NCBI GenBank assembly: GCA_965215425.1 | Contig: OZ244064.1 | Location: forward strand, 2,791,634 to 2,855,633 | Reading direction: 5' to 3' | Origin: Dehalococcoidia bacterium | Lineage (GTDB): Bacteria; Chloroflexota; Dehalococcoidia; Lucifugimonadales; UBA3495 | DNA length: 64,000 nt | Part shown: piece by piece, positions 30,042 to 33,421 of the stretch | Layout of the letters: every line of letters begins with the position of its first letter | Position numbering within the stretch: the stretch's first letter is position 1 | The notes under the pieces: model-generated | What the model was told of the DNA's origin: nothing | The model's database searches: none | Seen by the model: only the letters and a program-made list of their open reading frames with translations | Made by a program: the position numbers and the translations under genes

Positions 30042-30815
30042 TCAATCTCCCGCTGGTATGCCCTGGGTTAACGTTTGGAACTGGCCGGGCGGAACGCCGT
30101 CCGATCGACGGCCGGAACGGGCCGAGGGTTCTACCGCAGTCAGATGGTGGTCCATTGCTTGCCGGCAGCCAGCGGCGTCGCCGCTTTCGACCATCCGCAA
30201 AATCCGGCGGTGGGACTCCAGGGAACGCTGGGGACGGCCCGGCTCCTGCAACGACTTATCCCGGGACATCTGGAGGATGTCCTCAATGGCGCTGACCACC
30301 TTAACCAAGGCCGAGTTATGGGTAGCCGCCGCCAGAGTGAAGTGAAAGGCGGTGTCCGACTCCACTCCAGTCTCCCCCAAGTCAATCTGCCGCTGCTGTT
30401 CGGTCAGGATTTCCCGCATCCGACACACCTGGTCGGCGGTAGCCCGCTGGGCGGCCAGCGCGGCGATGTGAGGTTCCATCAGGTGGCGCATCTCGAAAAT
30501 GTCCTGCAGGGCCGCTGCTCCGCCGTTCAGGTTGGCCGCCAGCAGGTCCAGTGCCGCATCCAGGTTCTCGGTGTTGATAAAGGTGCCGGAACCCCGCCTG
30601 CTGACCACCAGCCCCTGCAATTCCAAAGCGCGAATCGCCTCCCGCACCGAACTGCGGCTGACCTGGAACTGCTCGGCCAGTTCCCGCTCCGCCGGCAGCC
30701 GGTCGCCATGCTTCAGCGCCCCCTGCCGGAGCAGGGCGTGAAACTGCTGCACAATGTCCTCGTACAGCCGCCGCCGCGTAACCTGGTGTATCTGCCGCTG
30801 CATCGCCGCATCCAC
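30042..30815 (-). CDS. GntR-family transcriptional regulator, FadR/FCD subfamily (LldR/PdhR-like)
   Basis: wHTH GDRLPAERELAEQFQVSRSSVREAIRALELQGLVVSRRGSGTFI plus an all-helical FCD-type C-terminal domain. Confidence 0.85.
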   Translation of the reverse strand: MDAAMQRQIHQVTRRRLYEDIVQQFHALLRQGALKHGDRLPAERELAEQFQVSRSSVREAIRALELQGLVVSRRGSGTFINTENLDAALDLLAANLNGGAAALQDIFEMRHLMEPHIAALAAQRATADQVCRMREILTEQQRQIDLGETGVESDTAFHFTLAAATHNSALVKVVSAIEDILQMSRDKSLQEPGRPQRSLESHRRILRMVESGDAAGCRQAMDHHLTAVEPSARSGRRSDGVPPGQFQTLTQGIPAGD

Positions 30816-30826
30816 GTTAAGGCAAG

Positions 30827-30837
30827 TGGTCAGACCA
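30827..30837. promoter_or_regulatory. Candidate autoregulatory operator TGGTCAGACCA
   Basis: Perfect TGGTC-N-GACCA inverted repeat between the predicted -10 box and the regulator start codon. It extends to ACCAATT, as in PdhR/LldR-type boxes. Confidence 0.45.
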
Positions 30838-30853
30838 ATTAAAGGGTGAGGCT

Positions 30854-30881
30854 ATTATACTATGGGAAGCGGGCTTGTCAA
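30854..30881 (-). promoter_or_regulatory. Strong sigma70-type promoter for the GntR regulator
   Basis: Minus strand: consensus TTGACA (30881-30876), 16-nt spacer, consensus TATAAT (30859-30854). Confidence 0.55.
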
Positions 30882-30976
30882 GGCGCGGGACCAGCGACTT
30901 CCATTTACTTTTAGGATTTGGCGTTATACCATACGGAGGGCGCATACGCACGCAACGGCGAAAGGAGTCAAGGCCA

Positions 30977-31456
30977 ATGTCAGCGAGGAAGATCACTTCA
31001 CGCACCAGGCAAATACGAACCCGCGCGGCGTCCTTACCCCCCCCCCCCCCCCCCCCCCCCCCGATTTTACACCCCTACTTGTCCGATAATGCCCTGGTTT
31101 GCGCCGACAATCTGGATACCCTCCGGGAGTTACCGGACGAGTGCGTTGCTCTGATTTACGCGACCGCTCCTTTCAACAGCAACCACAACTACCTGGCCGC
31201 CTTGGGCGCCCAAGGCCGGGTTGATGCCCAACGGCGCGACATCCGGCGTTGGACTGTTGAGCCCGACACCCAGTACCAGCCAGCCAACGGCGTTGCCCAT
31301 CCTAACATCCGTCCGCGCCAGGCAAAGCAGCCCCGGCGGGACATCGTACCCCGGGATGGTGCGCTCCCGCCGCAACACAAGCGGTTCCCGAAACTGGCCG
31401 CGGAACCGGGCCAAGATGGGAAAGCCGAAGGAGGGCATCACCATCAGGGCTTATAG
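30977..31456 (+). pseudogene. DNA methyltransferase N-terminal remnant containing the poly(C) tract
   Basis: AAGGAG (30962-30967) plus ATG 30977. The translation runs ...PPPPPPPPP-ILHPYLSDNALVCADNLDTLRELPDECVALIYATAPFNSNHNY. This resembles the N-terminus and motif IV region of N6A/N4C MTases, but DPPF is replaced by TAPF. Similarity is lost afterwards and no AdoMet motif was seen in any frame. Confidence 0.4.
31037..31062. repeat. Homopolymeric C26 tract
   Basis: Counted directly: C from 31037 through 31062, uninterrupted. Confidence 0.95.
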
Positions 31457-31660
31457 GGCTTATCCCCCGTTGGTCGCAAGAGGCCGCCCACTGGATGCCA
31501 GGTCCCCTTCCCGGATGCTTATACCCCCGTCGGTCGGAAGAAGTACCCGAGCTTAACGGGTAAACCCTGAAAGTAAACCGAACCTCCTTGAAAATGAAAC
31601 TCCGGCCGAATCCCTCTGATATTATAGTGGTCAGGCTAATTCGCCCAGGAAGCATTTATT

Positions 31661-33421
31661 GTGAAATCCGGACTCTCGCCGATTCTAATCGTTATCAGCC
31701 TGATGTTCCTGGTGGGCTGTGGAGCGTCGTCTCCCCCGGACCTGGCAACAGTGGTTGAACAAGTAGCGAGTGGCGTAGTTCGTATTGACACCCCTGACGG
31801 GAGCGGCTCCGGCGTTATCTTTGATACCACCGAGGACGGTGGCGCCCTGGTGTTGACCAACCATCACGTGGTGAAAGGCGCCAGCAGGATCGGCGTAGAG
31901 GTGGATGACTCAGATACTTACCGCGGAATCATTCAAGGCTTTGACGTTCAGATTGATCTGGCCGTATTAAGCATCTGCTGCGGGGATTTCCAGGTTTTGC
32001 CTTTTGGCGATGTACTCGAAATCATGCCGGGCAGTGAAGTAATTGTAATGGGCTATCCCCTGGGGTTGGCCGGCGCTCCGACCGTTACTCGCGGGATCGT
32101 ATCGGCCATTCGTCCCATGGGAGATTTTGAAATCATCCAGATCGACGCACCCCTGAACCCGGGAAATAGCGGCGGCCCCCTCCTGTCATTATCCGGGGAG
32201 GTATTAGGTATAAACACTTTCTCGATTAATAATACGGAAGGGTTAGGATTCGCTTTGTCGGAAAGGGCGGTACAGGCAAGTCTCTCGGAATTATCCGAGA
32301 AGAGAAGCCTTGCCGTCGCCACCCCCGCGCCGGCCTCTGCTCCAACTCCCGTAAATACGCCTACCCCGGCGCCCACCCCGGAGGCAGGGCTTTACTATGA
32401 CACCTCGGGCGGGATAGTAACGCCGGCCTGGACGGTTACGGCGACCCCGCGGCCAACTTCTACTTCTACTTCTGCTCCAACTGCGACGCCTGCCCGAACC
32501 CCGACGCCCGGACCTGCTCCTGTGCCGTCGTCCACCCCGTCGCCCGAACCCTTGAAATTAATTGCGGTCAGTACCGGCAGCGCAGAGTTTACCTGCGGAC
32601 TTCGATTAGATGGCACACCGGTCTGCTGGGGTTATCCCGAGGTAGGAATTCCGCCCGAAGGGGAGGACCTCCAGGATTTCCTGAAGGAGATCAGTCCCGG
32701 TTTAGTAGCTCTGCCCACAGGAGAGGAACTGACGGCAATCAGTAGCGGCCAGGTTCATGCATGCGGGCTGCGTACGAATGGCACACCCGTCTGCTGGGGA
32801 CGGGAAAGGCATATCGGGCGGGTGCCTGAGGGTGAAAAATTTACATCAATCAGCGCCGGAGCCGGATTCACCTGTGGACTGCGCGCGGACGGCGCCGCGG
32901 TTTGCTGGGGAGGTCCCGGGGGAGTGCCTACTGCGAAAGAGAAGTTTAAGTTCATCAGCAGTCATTATTCGGACGCTTGTGCCATACGGTTAGACGGAAC
33001 GCTGCATTGCTGGGGAGGCCAACGTGGTGTAGAGCTTCCTCCCTTGCCAGAGGGGGAAAAATTCATATCGGTCAGTGGCAACTGTGGACTGCGTAACGAC
33101 AGCGCTTTACTCTGCTGGGGCGGGCAGGAGTGGAACGAATGGTGGGATCGGGATCGCCTGCCACCCGAAGGCGAAAAGTTTAAGGCCATCAGCGGTAACT
33201 GCGGGCTACTGTTGGACGGCGCTCCGGTTTGCTGGGGCAAAGATCGTAACGGTTATGGTGAAACAAGCCCGCCTGAAGGGGAAAAGTTTGTAGCCATCAG
33301 CAGCAGTAGGCGGCACGGTGGGGAACACGTTTGCGCGCTGCGCGCCGATGGCATTCCAATTTGCTGGGGTCGTAATAACTGGGAAGAGGCGACTCCGCCT
33401 GCAGCGTCTATCCATAATTGA
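31661..33421 (+). CDS. Lipoprotein: S1 (trypsin-like) serine protease, Pro/Thr linker and seven RCC1-like repeats
   Basis: Lipobox MFLVGC. Triad contexts TNHHVV, DLAVL, NPGNSGGPLL. PT-rich linker. Seven units of C(G/A)LR.(D/N)G....CWG spaced by PEGEKF..IS. Confidence 0.8.
   Translation: MKSGLSPILIVISLMFLVGCGASSPPDLATVVEQVASGVVRIDTPDGSGSGVIFDTTEDGGALVLTNHHVVKGASRIGVEVDDSDTYRGIIQGFDVQIDLAVLSICCGDFQVLPFGDVLEIMPGSEVIVMGYPLGLAGAPTVTRGIVSAIRPMGDFEIIQIDAPLNPGNSGGPLLSLSGEVLGINTFSINNTEGLGFALSERAVQASLSELSEKRSLAVATPAPASAPTPVNTPTPAPTPEAGLYYDTSGGIVTPAWTVTATPRPTSTSTSAPTATPARTPTPGPAPVPSSTPSPEPLKLIAVSTGSAEFTCGLRLDGTPVCWGYPEVGIPPEGEDLQDFLKEISPGLVALPTGEELTAISSGQVHACGLRTNGTPVCWGRERHIGRVPEGEKFTSISAGAGFTCGLRADGAAVCWGGPGGVPTAKEKFKFISSHYSDACAIRLDGTLHCWGGQRGVELPPLPEGEKFISVSGNCGLRNDSALLCWGGQEWNEWWDRDRLPPEGEKFKAISGNCGLLLDGAPVCWGKDRNGYGETSPPEGEKFVAISSSRRHGGEHVCALRADGIPICWGRNNWEEATPPAASIHN

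What the first reader, a model, noticed from the sequence alone, without database searches (positions are those of the whole stretch)
30962..31456. C26 homopolymer in frame within a methyltransferase-like ORF: candidate slipped-strand phase switch, or an assembly artefact
31037-31062 is an uninterrupted run of 26 C, the only long homopolymer I saw in the 64 kb. It is not simple intergenic filler. An ATG at 30977 with AAGGAG 9 nt upstream reads through the tract (nine Pro codons) straight into LHPYLSDNALVCADNLDTLRELPDECVALIYATAPFNSNHNY. That segment aligns by eye with the N-terminus and motif-IV region of N6A/N4C DNA methyltransferases (usually ..LIY.DPPF/Y.N..). All three forward frames are open across the tract, but only the present length keeps ATG 30977 in frame with the MTase-like segment. 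The two alternative frames terminate at 31089 and 31154. This is the architecture of homopolymer-controlled phase-variable mod genes (phasevarions) known from Neisseria, Haemophilus and Helicobacter. To my knowledge it has not been described in GC-rich Chloroflexota-like genomes. Three points argue against current function. DPPF is replaced by TAPF. Recognisable similarity stops after about 60 aa. No AdoMet motif or restriction partner follows in any frame. It therefore looks like the 5' stump of a decayed R-M gene that retained its switch. The G26 on the opposite strand could also form G-quadruplex structure between the regulator promoter and the protease gene.
Basis: partly seen in the sequence, partly recalled or inferred. 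Interest (0 to 1): 0.65.

Follow-up and report, generated by a model that had tools for sequence, protein, structure and literature searches.

The report
Poly-C repeat in dead methylase gene
A real run of about 26 C sits in the leftover first 100 codons of a broken DNA-methyltransferase gene in a Dehalococcoidia genome, and related methylase genes carry C runs of 11, 14 and 17 at the same spot, so it looks like the fossil of a slippage-prone on/off repeat and not an assembly error.

Summary
C26 lies at 31037-31062, and the next longest homopolymer in the 64 kb is 7. ATG 30977 reads through it into a true N-terminal remnant of a beta-class (PF01555) DNA methyltransferase: 72% identity to a full-length 545-aa homologue over 71 codons, E 1.6e-28.

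The tract is not a chimeric join. The left flank encodes the basic N-terminal tail typical of this family. Four independent loci carry a poly-C run at the same linker, all ending C(n)GA(C/T)T: C26 here, C11, C14 (one base out of frame) and C17. Two short-read assemblies of the same species break at both edges of the tract.

The gene here is dead. Only 71 homologous codons survive. Ten of 37 conserved positions are replaced (DPPF to TAPF), the two strains differ by 7 synonymous and 8 non-synonymous codons, and there are large indels. Nothing else of the methyltransferase is in the window.

The tract is therefore a genuine hypermutable repeat stranded in a pseudogene. Its past role as a phase switch is inferred, and no tract-bearing copy I found is intact. 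The exact length is uncertain, because the source appears to be a long-read genome. This is a new, decayed member of a known kind, of moderate interest.

The parts
30962..30967 (+). Shine-Dalgarno-like AAGGAG, 9 nt before ATG 30977
   Evidence: Read directly. It is conserved in the same-species MAG (L006).
30977..31036 (+). Codons 1-20 (MSARKITSRTRQIRTRAASL): the basic, low-complexity N-terminal tail of the methyltransferase family
   Evidence: Homologues have the same kind of K/R/T/A/P-rich tail of 10-70 aa before the (H/N)xYLxGN motif. This shows that the left flank belongs to the same gene.
31037..31062 (+). C26 mononucleotide repeat (G26 on the minus strand). It encodes most of a Pro9 run in the tail-to-core linker.
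   Evidence: Homologous tracts are C11 (L052/L053), C14 (L054) and C17 (L045), all ending C(n)GA(C/T)T. Contigs of the same-species short-read MAG stop at both edges.
31067..31279 (+). Remnant of the N-terminal 71 codons of a PF01555 beta-class DNA methyltransferase; pseudogene
   Evidence: tblastn against P0008 gives 72% identity, E 1.6e-28. Ten of 37 family-conserved positions are replaced, and the two strains differ by 7 synonymous and 8 non-synonymous codons.
31163..31174 (+). Degenerate catalytic motif IV: TAPF in place of DPPF
   Evidence: D is 17/17 and P is 16/17 in the other members.
31280..31456 (+). Non-homologous tail of the 159-aa ORF up to its stop codon
   Evidence: No methyltransferase or Pfam similarity. 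The same-species strain has 146 extra nt and an earlier stop here.
31457..31660 (.). Non-coding spacer before the protease gene. It contains a 60-nt-spaced direct repeat and a second GntR-operator-like site (31626-31641).
   Evidence: No Rfam family and no terminator were found.
30825..30881 (-). GntR/FadR-gene promoter (TTGACA, 16 nt, TATAAT; 12 of 12) and palindromic operator-like AGTGGTCAGACCAATT. This is the ancestral part of the intergenic region.
   Evidence: It is conserved in L008, where the GntR and protease genes lie about 140-230 nt apart with no stub.

Best explanation
The C26 run is a genuine hypermutable mononucleotide repeat. It lies in the proline-coding linker between the basic N-terminal tail and the catalytic core of a beta-class (PF01555, Type II-like) DNA methyltransferase. 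That family is common in Dehalococcoidia.

In this species only the first ~100 codons survive, lodged between a GntR/FadR regulator gene and a secreted protease gene, and they evolve neutrally. Strand slippage at the tract can therefore only toggle between a 159-aa junk product and products of 36-59 aa. The tract is a fossil with no present methyltransferase function.

In the near-intact homologues, a tract of 11-17 C in the same place would switch translation of the enzyme on and off. This is the classical slipped-strand phase variation of methyltransferase genes.

Shown here: the tract itself, its position in the gene, the homology, the decay, the recurrence at the same site, and one out-of-frame copy. 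Inferred: that the tract actually changes length within populations, and that it ever served as a selected switch.
For: **The tract**
- It is present and unique in the window.
- In 0.52 Mb of related Dehalococcoidia DNA not chosen through the methyltransferase, the only runs of 9 or more are one C9 and one contig-end G27 artefact.

**Homology**
- The stub is homologous to full-length methyltransferases.
- The left flank is the family's N-terminal tail, and short Pro runs (P2-P4) occupy the same linker in relatives.

**Recurrence at the same site**
- Poly-C tracts lie at the homologous site in L052/L053 (C11, in frame), L045 (C17, in frame) and L054 (C14, out of frame; 13 or 16 would be in frame).
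- L054 comes from a closed 4.1-Mb Dehalococcoidia MAG at 67x.
- The L045 and L054 bodies show dN/dS of about 0.09-0.14 with saturated dS. Tract-bearing genes were therefore functional for most of their history.

**Same-species evidence**
- The MAG GCA_964347845.1 is 97-98% identical in the flanking genes.
- Its contigs end within 0-3 nt of the tract on both sides. A second assembly breaks 13-20 nt away.

**Decay of the stub**
- TAPF replaces DPPF, and 10 of 37 conserved positions are replaced.
- The strains differ by 7 synonymous and 8 non-synonymous codons, against 28:7, 19:4 and 19:2 in the neighbouring genes.
- There are indels of 146, 59 and 8 nt.
- Relatives have the GntR and protease genes 140-390 nt apart with no stub.

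**Literature**
- Mononucleotide tracts of 9 nt already phase-vary at about 1e-3 (PMC5909438).
Against: - No reads are available, so length variation within a population is not shown.
- The count of 26 may be off, because long-read assemblies resolve long homopolymers poorly.
- Every tract-bearing copy found also has another lesion:
  - an IS cut in L053;
  - a TAG codon plus a frameshift in L045;
  - a 1-nt deletion in L054.
- So no intact gene with a tract has been seen. The long tracts could have expanded only after the genes died.
- L052 and L053, from two samples, both have C11.
- Relatives without lesions at that site use mixed Pro codons (L056, CCT CCG CCC CCT) or lack the run.
- No sigma-70-like promoter was found for the stub.
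Confidence: 0.6

Rival explanations
1. Neutral expansion only. The tract was never a switch. Once copies of this methyltransferase gene were inactivated, the CCN-CCN-CCN-CCG proline linker was free to become a pure C run and to grow by slippage. Long tracts therefore mark dead genes.
For: - All four tract-bearing loci carry other inactivating lesions.
- The longest tract (C26) is in the most decayed copy.
- L056 and P0008 have no homopolymer.
- Close relatives P0006 (PP) and P0013 (P6, C17) differ only in run length.
Against: - L045 and L054 are full-length apart from one or two lesions, and they show strong purifying selection over a saturated dS. The tract must have coexisted with a working gene, or else arisen independently and very recently in each copy.
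- Some lesions may be long-read errors. The L056 split is a T3-to-T4 run, and the L054 deletion lies in AAGCTT.
- The identical 3' boundary C(n)GA(C/T)T in all four suggests shared ancestry.
Confidence: 0.25
2. Sequencing or assembly artefact. The C26 run is a poly-G/C no-signal artefact, or a false join of two unrelated contigs.
For: - Poly-G artefacts do occur in related short-read data. L005 ends in G27, which is absent from the window.
- L007 ends in adapter-like sequence.
- Homopolymer length calls in long reads are unreliable.
Against: - The tract is internal to a 3.3-Mb contig.
- Both flanks belong to one gene architecture, in one frame.
- Independent assemblies of other organisms have a C tract at the same codon position.
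- Flanking synteny (GntR, stub, protease) is the same in the same-species MAG, on the two contigs that end at the tract.
Confidence: 0.05
3. The tract has a present-day function unrelated to methylation. For example, G26 on the minus strand could form a G-quadruplex, or the C strand an i-motif. Such a structure could insulate or modulate transcription between the GntR promoter and the protease gene. Alternatively, the tract could switch expression of a small proline-rich peptide.
For: - By sequence, a run of 26 G can form an intramolecular quadruplex.
- The stub, its Shine-Dalgarno sequence and its start codon are kept in both strains.
- An operator-like site and a 21-nt inverted repeat bracket the stub.
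Against: - The tract lies 155 nt beyond the GntR promoter, on its non-transcribed side, and 600 nt before the protease start.
- The protease gene has its own operator-like site close to it.
- The region evolves at the neutral rate with large indels.
- No promoter-like site was found for the stub.
Confidence: 0.1

Closest known systems
Homopolymer-controlled phase-variable DNA methyltransferase genes (phasevarions): modH, modJ and modL of Helicobacter pylori, and modU of Campylobacter upsaliensis, all with G(n) tracts. Survey in PMC5909438.
   Same: - A mononucleotide G/C run of 9 or more lies inside the 5' part of a methyltransferase ORF.
- Its length sets the reading frame of the catalytic body.
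- Lengths differ among homologues, and one is out of frame.
   Different: - The family here scores best as Type II-like beta-class, not Type III Mod, and no Res partner was seen.
- The hosts are uncultured, free-living, GC-rich Dehalococcoidia.
- The window copy is a 71-codon pseudogene.
- No switching or methylation phenotype has been observed.
PF01555 N6_N4_Mtase beta-class amino-methyltransferases (for example M.PvuII, M.RsrI, CcrM-like)
   Same: - The N-terminal architecture is the same: xYxGD(N/C)L..L..LPD.SVDLIxxDPPF/YN.
- P0008 and the L054 and L056 bodies match PF01555 at 1e-17 to 1e-45.
   Different: - The window keeps only the first strand-helix-motif IV segment.
- Motif IV is mutated to TAPF.
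- The target-recognition and AdoMet-binding regions are missing.
Hypermutable homopolymers persisting in pseudogenes of contingency loci (phase-variable genes locked off and then decaying; general knowledge from Neisseria, Haemophilus and Campylobacter genomics)
   Same: A repeat tract is retained in a gene that has accumulated further inactivating mutations.
   Different: Here the ancestral switching is inferred from homologues, not documented.

Membership tests
PF01555 beta-class DNA methyltransferase (functional member) | Significant sequence homology to family members | tested here: met
   tblastn against P0008 gives E 1.6e-28 at 72% identity over 71 aa. The profile search returns 5282 hits. 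PADLOC MTase_II hits at E 7e-6. The Pfam HMM on the ORF alone gives no hit.
PF01555 beta-class DNA methyltransferase (functional member) | Catalytic motif IV (D/S/N)PP(Y/F) | tested here: not met
   TAPF at 31163-31174. D is 17/17 and P is 16/17 in the other members.
PF01555 beta-class DNA methyltransferase (functional member) | Target-recognition region and AdoMet-binding motif I downstream | tested here: not met
   Homology ends at 31279. No other methyltransferase segment is found in any frame of the 64 kb.
SSR-controlled phase-variable methyltransferase (phasevarion type) | Mononucleotide repeat of 9 or more within the ORF (criterion of PMC5909438) | tested here: met
   C26 at 31037-31062. 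The criterion is quoted.
SSR-controlled phase-variable methyltransferase (phasevarion type) | Repeat length sets the frame between the start codon and the methyltransferase body | tested here: met
   In silico, lengths 23, 26 and 29 are in frame and the others stop after 36-59 aa. L054 (C14) is out of frame.
SSR-controlled phase-variable methyltransferase (phasevarion type) | Tract length varies among strains or within populations | tested here: inconclusive
   Homologues in other organisms have 11, 14 and 17. L052 and L053 both have 11. The same-species MAG breaks at the tract, so its length there is unknown. No reads are available.
SSR-controlled phase-variable methyltransferase (phasevarion type) | An active methyltransferase is produced in the ON state | tested here: not met
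   The window copy is a 71-codon stub with a dead motif IV. All other tract-bearing copies carry further lesions.
SSR-controlled phase-variable methyltransferase (phasevarion type) | Methylation-dependent change of gene expression | not testable with these tools
   Needs methylome and transcriptome data from ON and OFF variants.
Type III R-M Mod subunit | Best match to Type III Mod models, with an adjacent res gene | tested here: not met
   For P0008 and L056, the best PADLOC models are MTase_II (1e-59 to 1e-72), ahead of MTase_III (1e-35 to 1e-38). No res-like gene is next to the stub. Neighbours in L045 and L056 show none, and L054 has a DEAD helicase 1.4 kb downstream that was not examined.
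Assembly artefact (false join or terminal poly-G) | Flanks unrelated to each other, or the tract at a contig end | tested here: not met
   The flanks form one gene in one frame, with the family's architecture. The tract is internal to a 3.3-Mb contig.
G-quadruplex / i-motif forming sequence | At least four G3 runs with short loops; structure formed in vitro or in vivo | not testable with these tools
   G26 satisfies the sequence rule trivially. Whether the structure forms was not tested.

The most novel reading that the evidence does not exclude
A family of beta-class DNA methyltransferases in uncultured, free-living Dehalococcoidia (Chloroflexota) carries a conserved, selectively maintained poly-C contingency tract in the linker after its basic N-terminal tail. 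These environmental bacteria would then switch genome methylation on and off stochastically, as host-adapted pathogens do. The window would hold a dead copy of such a switch.
Probability: 0.3. Interest if true: 0.6.

Novelty: new member of a known kind. Interest (0 to 1): 0.4.

Why it matters
**For this genome**
- The practical message is small. The ORF annotated at 30977-31456 is a pseudogene.
- The C run is real, but its exact length should not be trusted.
- It explains why short-read assemblies of this species break at this spot.

**More broadly**
- The same poly-C site recurs in at least four Dehalococcoidia methyltransferase genes, with lengths of 11 to 26.
- One copy is a single base out of frame.
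- These genomes otherwise avoid long homopolymers.
- This gives a concrete, testable candidate for slipped-strand phase variation of DNA methylation in a free-living, uncultured, GC-rich phylum. I found no report of it there. The literature searches and the Type III survey PMC5909438 list environmental examples, but none from Chloroflexota.
- Existing long-read metagenomes could test it directly, by tabulating tract lengths and methylation per read.

Tried and rejected
**Searches that found little or nothing**
- Pfam and NCBIfam on the 159-aa ORF give no methyltransferase hit. Homology had to be shown through homologues.
- Exact look-ups of the ORF and the protease product did not find the source genome in the contig index.
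- The GTDB genome scan with the GntR protein found 34 related Dehalococcoidia/Chloroflexota (including SAR202) loci, plus two distant hits (Petroclostridium and Ca. Acidoferrum). It did not find the source species, and none of the loci has the stub or a long homopolymer.
- The JGI metagenome scan for C12-N(90-120)-DPPFN returned six hits. All are C/T-rich junk contigs, not methyltransferase genes. That collection therefore gave no further examples.
- Rfam, terminator and promoter scans of 30700-31800 gave nothing relevant except the GntR promoter.
- Pfam on the ORFs of 31130-31655 gave nothing.

**Leads that were rejected**
- The Pro7 run of P0140 is encoded by (CCG)n, not by a homopolymer. 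It is not an example.
- I tested whether the ~100-nt GntR promoter region is duplicated in inverted orientation on the far side of the stub. Only a 16-nt operator match and a 16-21-nt inverted repeat stand out, and 5 of 500 shuffles reach the score. The idea is left as a side note.

**Not run**
- Structure prediction was not run, because the fragment is too short and degenerate to be informative.

Full report
**1. The observation**

Positions 31037-31062 are an uninterrupted run of 26 C. Every other homopolymer in the 64-kb window is 7 nt or shorter. Base composition predicts about 4e-9 runs of this length.

AAGGAG lies at 30962-30967, 9 nt before ATG 30977. The ORF 30977-31456 (159 aa) reads MSARKITSRTRQIRTRAASL-P9-ILHPYLSDNALVCADNLDTLRELPDECVALIYATAPFNSNHNY.... 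The two other forward ORFs across the tract end at 31089 and 31154. Varying the tract in silico, lengths 23, 26 and 29 give the long product. All other lengths give 36-59 aa. The description is therefore accurate.

**2. Is the ORF methyltransferase-derived?**

Pfam and NCBIfam see nothing in the ORF itself. A word-indexed search found the identical 159-aa protein on a 3,302,831-bp NCBI/ENA contig. It also found two truncated relatives that keep the canonical DLIYLDPPFNSN motif.

An exhaustive profile search with these three sequences gave 5282 hits. The longer ones are PF01555 N6_N4_Mtase proteins. One is P0008, 545 aa, PF01555 at 6e-43 with a weak Mrr_cat-like C-terminus.

tblastn of P0008 against the window aligns aa 12-82 to 31067-31279 at 72% identity, E 1.6e-28. 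It finds no other segment in any frame of the 64 kb. PADLOC's Type II methyltransferase model PDLC03300 hits the window ORF directly at E 7e-6. The full-length relatives score best on Type II models (1e-59 to 1e-72), ahead of Type III models.

The gene is a beta-class, Type II-like amino-methyltransferase, and only its first 71 core codons remain.

**3. Is the tract a join or an artefact?**

Members of this subfamily share one architecture. A basic, low-complexity N-terminal tail of 10-70 aa comes first, then a short proline-containing linker, then (H/N)xYL(S/A)GNALVC. The window's left flank encodes such a tail, in frame, with a start codon at the usual distance. The tract occupies the linker. 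The two flanks therefore belong to one gene.

The tract is also internal to a 3.3-Mb contig.

The same-species MAG GCA_964347845.1 is 97-98% identical in the POR, GntR, protease and TPP-enzyme genes. It has the locus split over two contigs.
- Contig 2 ends where the tract begins (L006).
- Contig 36 begins 3 nt after the tract ends (L004).
- Two further short-read contigs, one from each of two further samples, break 13 nt before the tract and 20 nt after it (L007 and L005).

This is the behaviour expected of a long G/C homopolymer in low-coverage Illumina data. The same data sets do contain true artefacts, but these are terminal and absent from the window. L005 ends in G27, and L007 ends in adapter-like sequence.

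**4. The same tract in homologues**

Three other loci carry a poly-C run at the homologous linker position, all ending C(n)GA(C/T)T (alignment, frames).

| Locus | Source | Tract | Frame | Other lesions |
|---|---|---|---|---|
| window | 3.3-Mb contig | C26 | in frame | 71-codon stub, TAPF |
| L052/L053 | two ENA samples | C11 | in frame | cut by an IS after about 134 aa |
| L045 | 207-kb contig | C17 | in frame | CAG-to-TAG at codon 100 and a C-terminal frameshift |
| L054 | OZ240220.1, closed 4.1-Mb Dehalococcoidia MAG, 67x | C14 | one base out of frame; 13 or 16 would be in frame | 1-nt deletion further on |

Relatives without a homopolymer encode the linker differently.
- L056 uses mixed codons, CCT CCG CCC CCT.
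- P0008 lacks the run.
- P0140's Pro7 run is (CCG)n and is not an example.

In 0.52 Mb of related Dehalococcoidia DNA fetched for other reasons, the only runs of 9 or more are one C9 and the terminal G27 artefact. The recurrence at this one site is therefore not background.

The L045 and L054 bodies differ at saturated synonymous sites, with dN/dS of about 0.09-0.14. Tract-bearing genes were under purifying selection for most of their divergence.

**5. State of the window copy**

- Ten of 37 positions that are at least 85% conserved in the subfamily are replaced. These include the D and a P of DPPF, now TAPF at 31163-31174.
- Between the two strains, the 71 codons differ by 7 synonymous and 8 non-synonymous changes. 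The neighbouring genes show 28:7, 19:4 and 19:2.
- Nucleotide identity is 89-94% in the stub region, against 97-98% in the neighbouring genes. The region also differs by indels of 146, 59 and 8 nt.
- More distant relatives have the GntR and protease genes divergent and only 140-390 nt apart, with no stub. Here the distance is 858 nt.
- The only promoter-like site is a perfect TTGACA-16-TATAAT on the minus strand for the GntR gene. There is no terminator and no Rfam family.

The stub is an insertion remnant specific to this species, and it evolves at the neutral rate.

**6. Mechanism**

*What is shown.* A long, genuine mononucleotide repeat lies in the 5' coding part of a methyltransferase gene lineage, at a conserved site. 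Its length differs between lineages, and one copy is out of frame.

*What follows from established knowledge.* Tracts of 9 nt already slip at about 1e-3 per generation (PMC5909438). Tracts of 11-26 nt should therefore be highly unstable, and in an intact gene they would switch translation on and off.

*What is inferred.* The ancestor of the window copy was such a switchable gene. In the window itself the switch is disconnected, because slippage only exchanges junk products.

I give this account 0.6. The rivals are as follows.
- **Neutral expansion after gene death (0.25).** No tract-bearing copy found is fully intact. Some of the lesions may be long-read errors, however. The L056 split is a T3-to-T4 run, and the L054 deletion sits in AAGCTT.
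- **A present-day structural or regulatory role of the G26/C26 run (0.1).** This is untested. The neutral evolution of the region and the tract's position relative to the promoters argue against it.
- **A pure artefact (0.05).**

**7. Comparison with what is known**

The locus works like homopolymer-controlled phase-variable methyltransferase genes such as modH, modJ, modL and modU. It fails membership of the Type III Mod class: Type II models score best and no res gene is adjacent. The window copy also fails the requirement for an active enzyme.

The REBASE survey reports SSR-bearing mod genes in some environmental species, but none from Chloroflexota. My text searches found no report for this phylum either.

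I classify it as a new, decayed member of a known kind.

**8. Caveats**

- The source assembly and most informative relatives appear to be long-read MAGs. The exact tract lengths, and some frameshifts, are uncertain.
- No read data could be examined.

Noticed in passing
window 30825-30840 and 31626-31641: The palindromic GntR/FadR-operator-like AGTGGTCAGACCAATT next to the GntR promoter recurs as AGTGGTCAGGCTAATT, 20 nt before the protease GTG. Relatives with the two genes adjacent have a single copy. The protease gene may have kept regulator control after the stub separated the two genes.
   Followed up: partly
window 30899-30919 and 31562-31582: A 21-nt inverted repeat (81% complementary; 13 nt exact in the same-species MAG) brackets the whole methyltransferase stub. 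It occurs nowhere else in the window or the fetched loci. A larger inverted duplication is not statistically supported (5 of 500 shuffles reach the score).
   Followed up: partly
window 31463-31482 and 31523-31542: A direct repeat with 60-nt spacing lies in the spacer. The same-species strain L004 has one copy, so this is a recent 59-60-nt duplication or deletion.
   Followed up: partly
L005 4645-4671: This short-read contig ends in G27, which has no counterpart in the window (about 35637). It looks like a terminal two-colour-chemistry poly-G artefact, and serves as a useful contrast to the internal C26.
   Followed up: yes
L007 1-20: The contig end reads AAGATCGGAATAGCGTCGTT, which is Illumina-adapter-like. 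It lies 13 nt before the position of the tract.
   Followed up: no
L001/L002 6001-6498, L003 6001-6297, L053 199-636: Other N-terminal stubs of the same methyltransferase subfamily sit in IS-rich regions. They are cut within about 20 codons of where the window copy loses homology (aa 71-91 of P0008), except L053, which is cut at about aa 134. Whether this clustering of breakpoints means anything is unknown.
   Followed up: partly
L054 2836-2857, L056 3330-3342, L045 3298-3300: Near-full-length family members in long-read MAGs each carry one or two small lesions: a 1-nt deletion inside AAGCTT, a T3-to-T4 run, and a CAG-to-TAG change. These may be real mutations or read errors, possibly linked to methylated motifs.
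   Followed up: no
window 31661-33421: The neighbouring gene encodes a lipoprotein-like trypsin-family protease fused to five RCC1-type repeats through a Pro/Thr-rich linker. In the relative L008 the orthologous position holds a protease fused to a cyclophilin domain instead.
   Followed up: no
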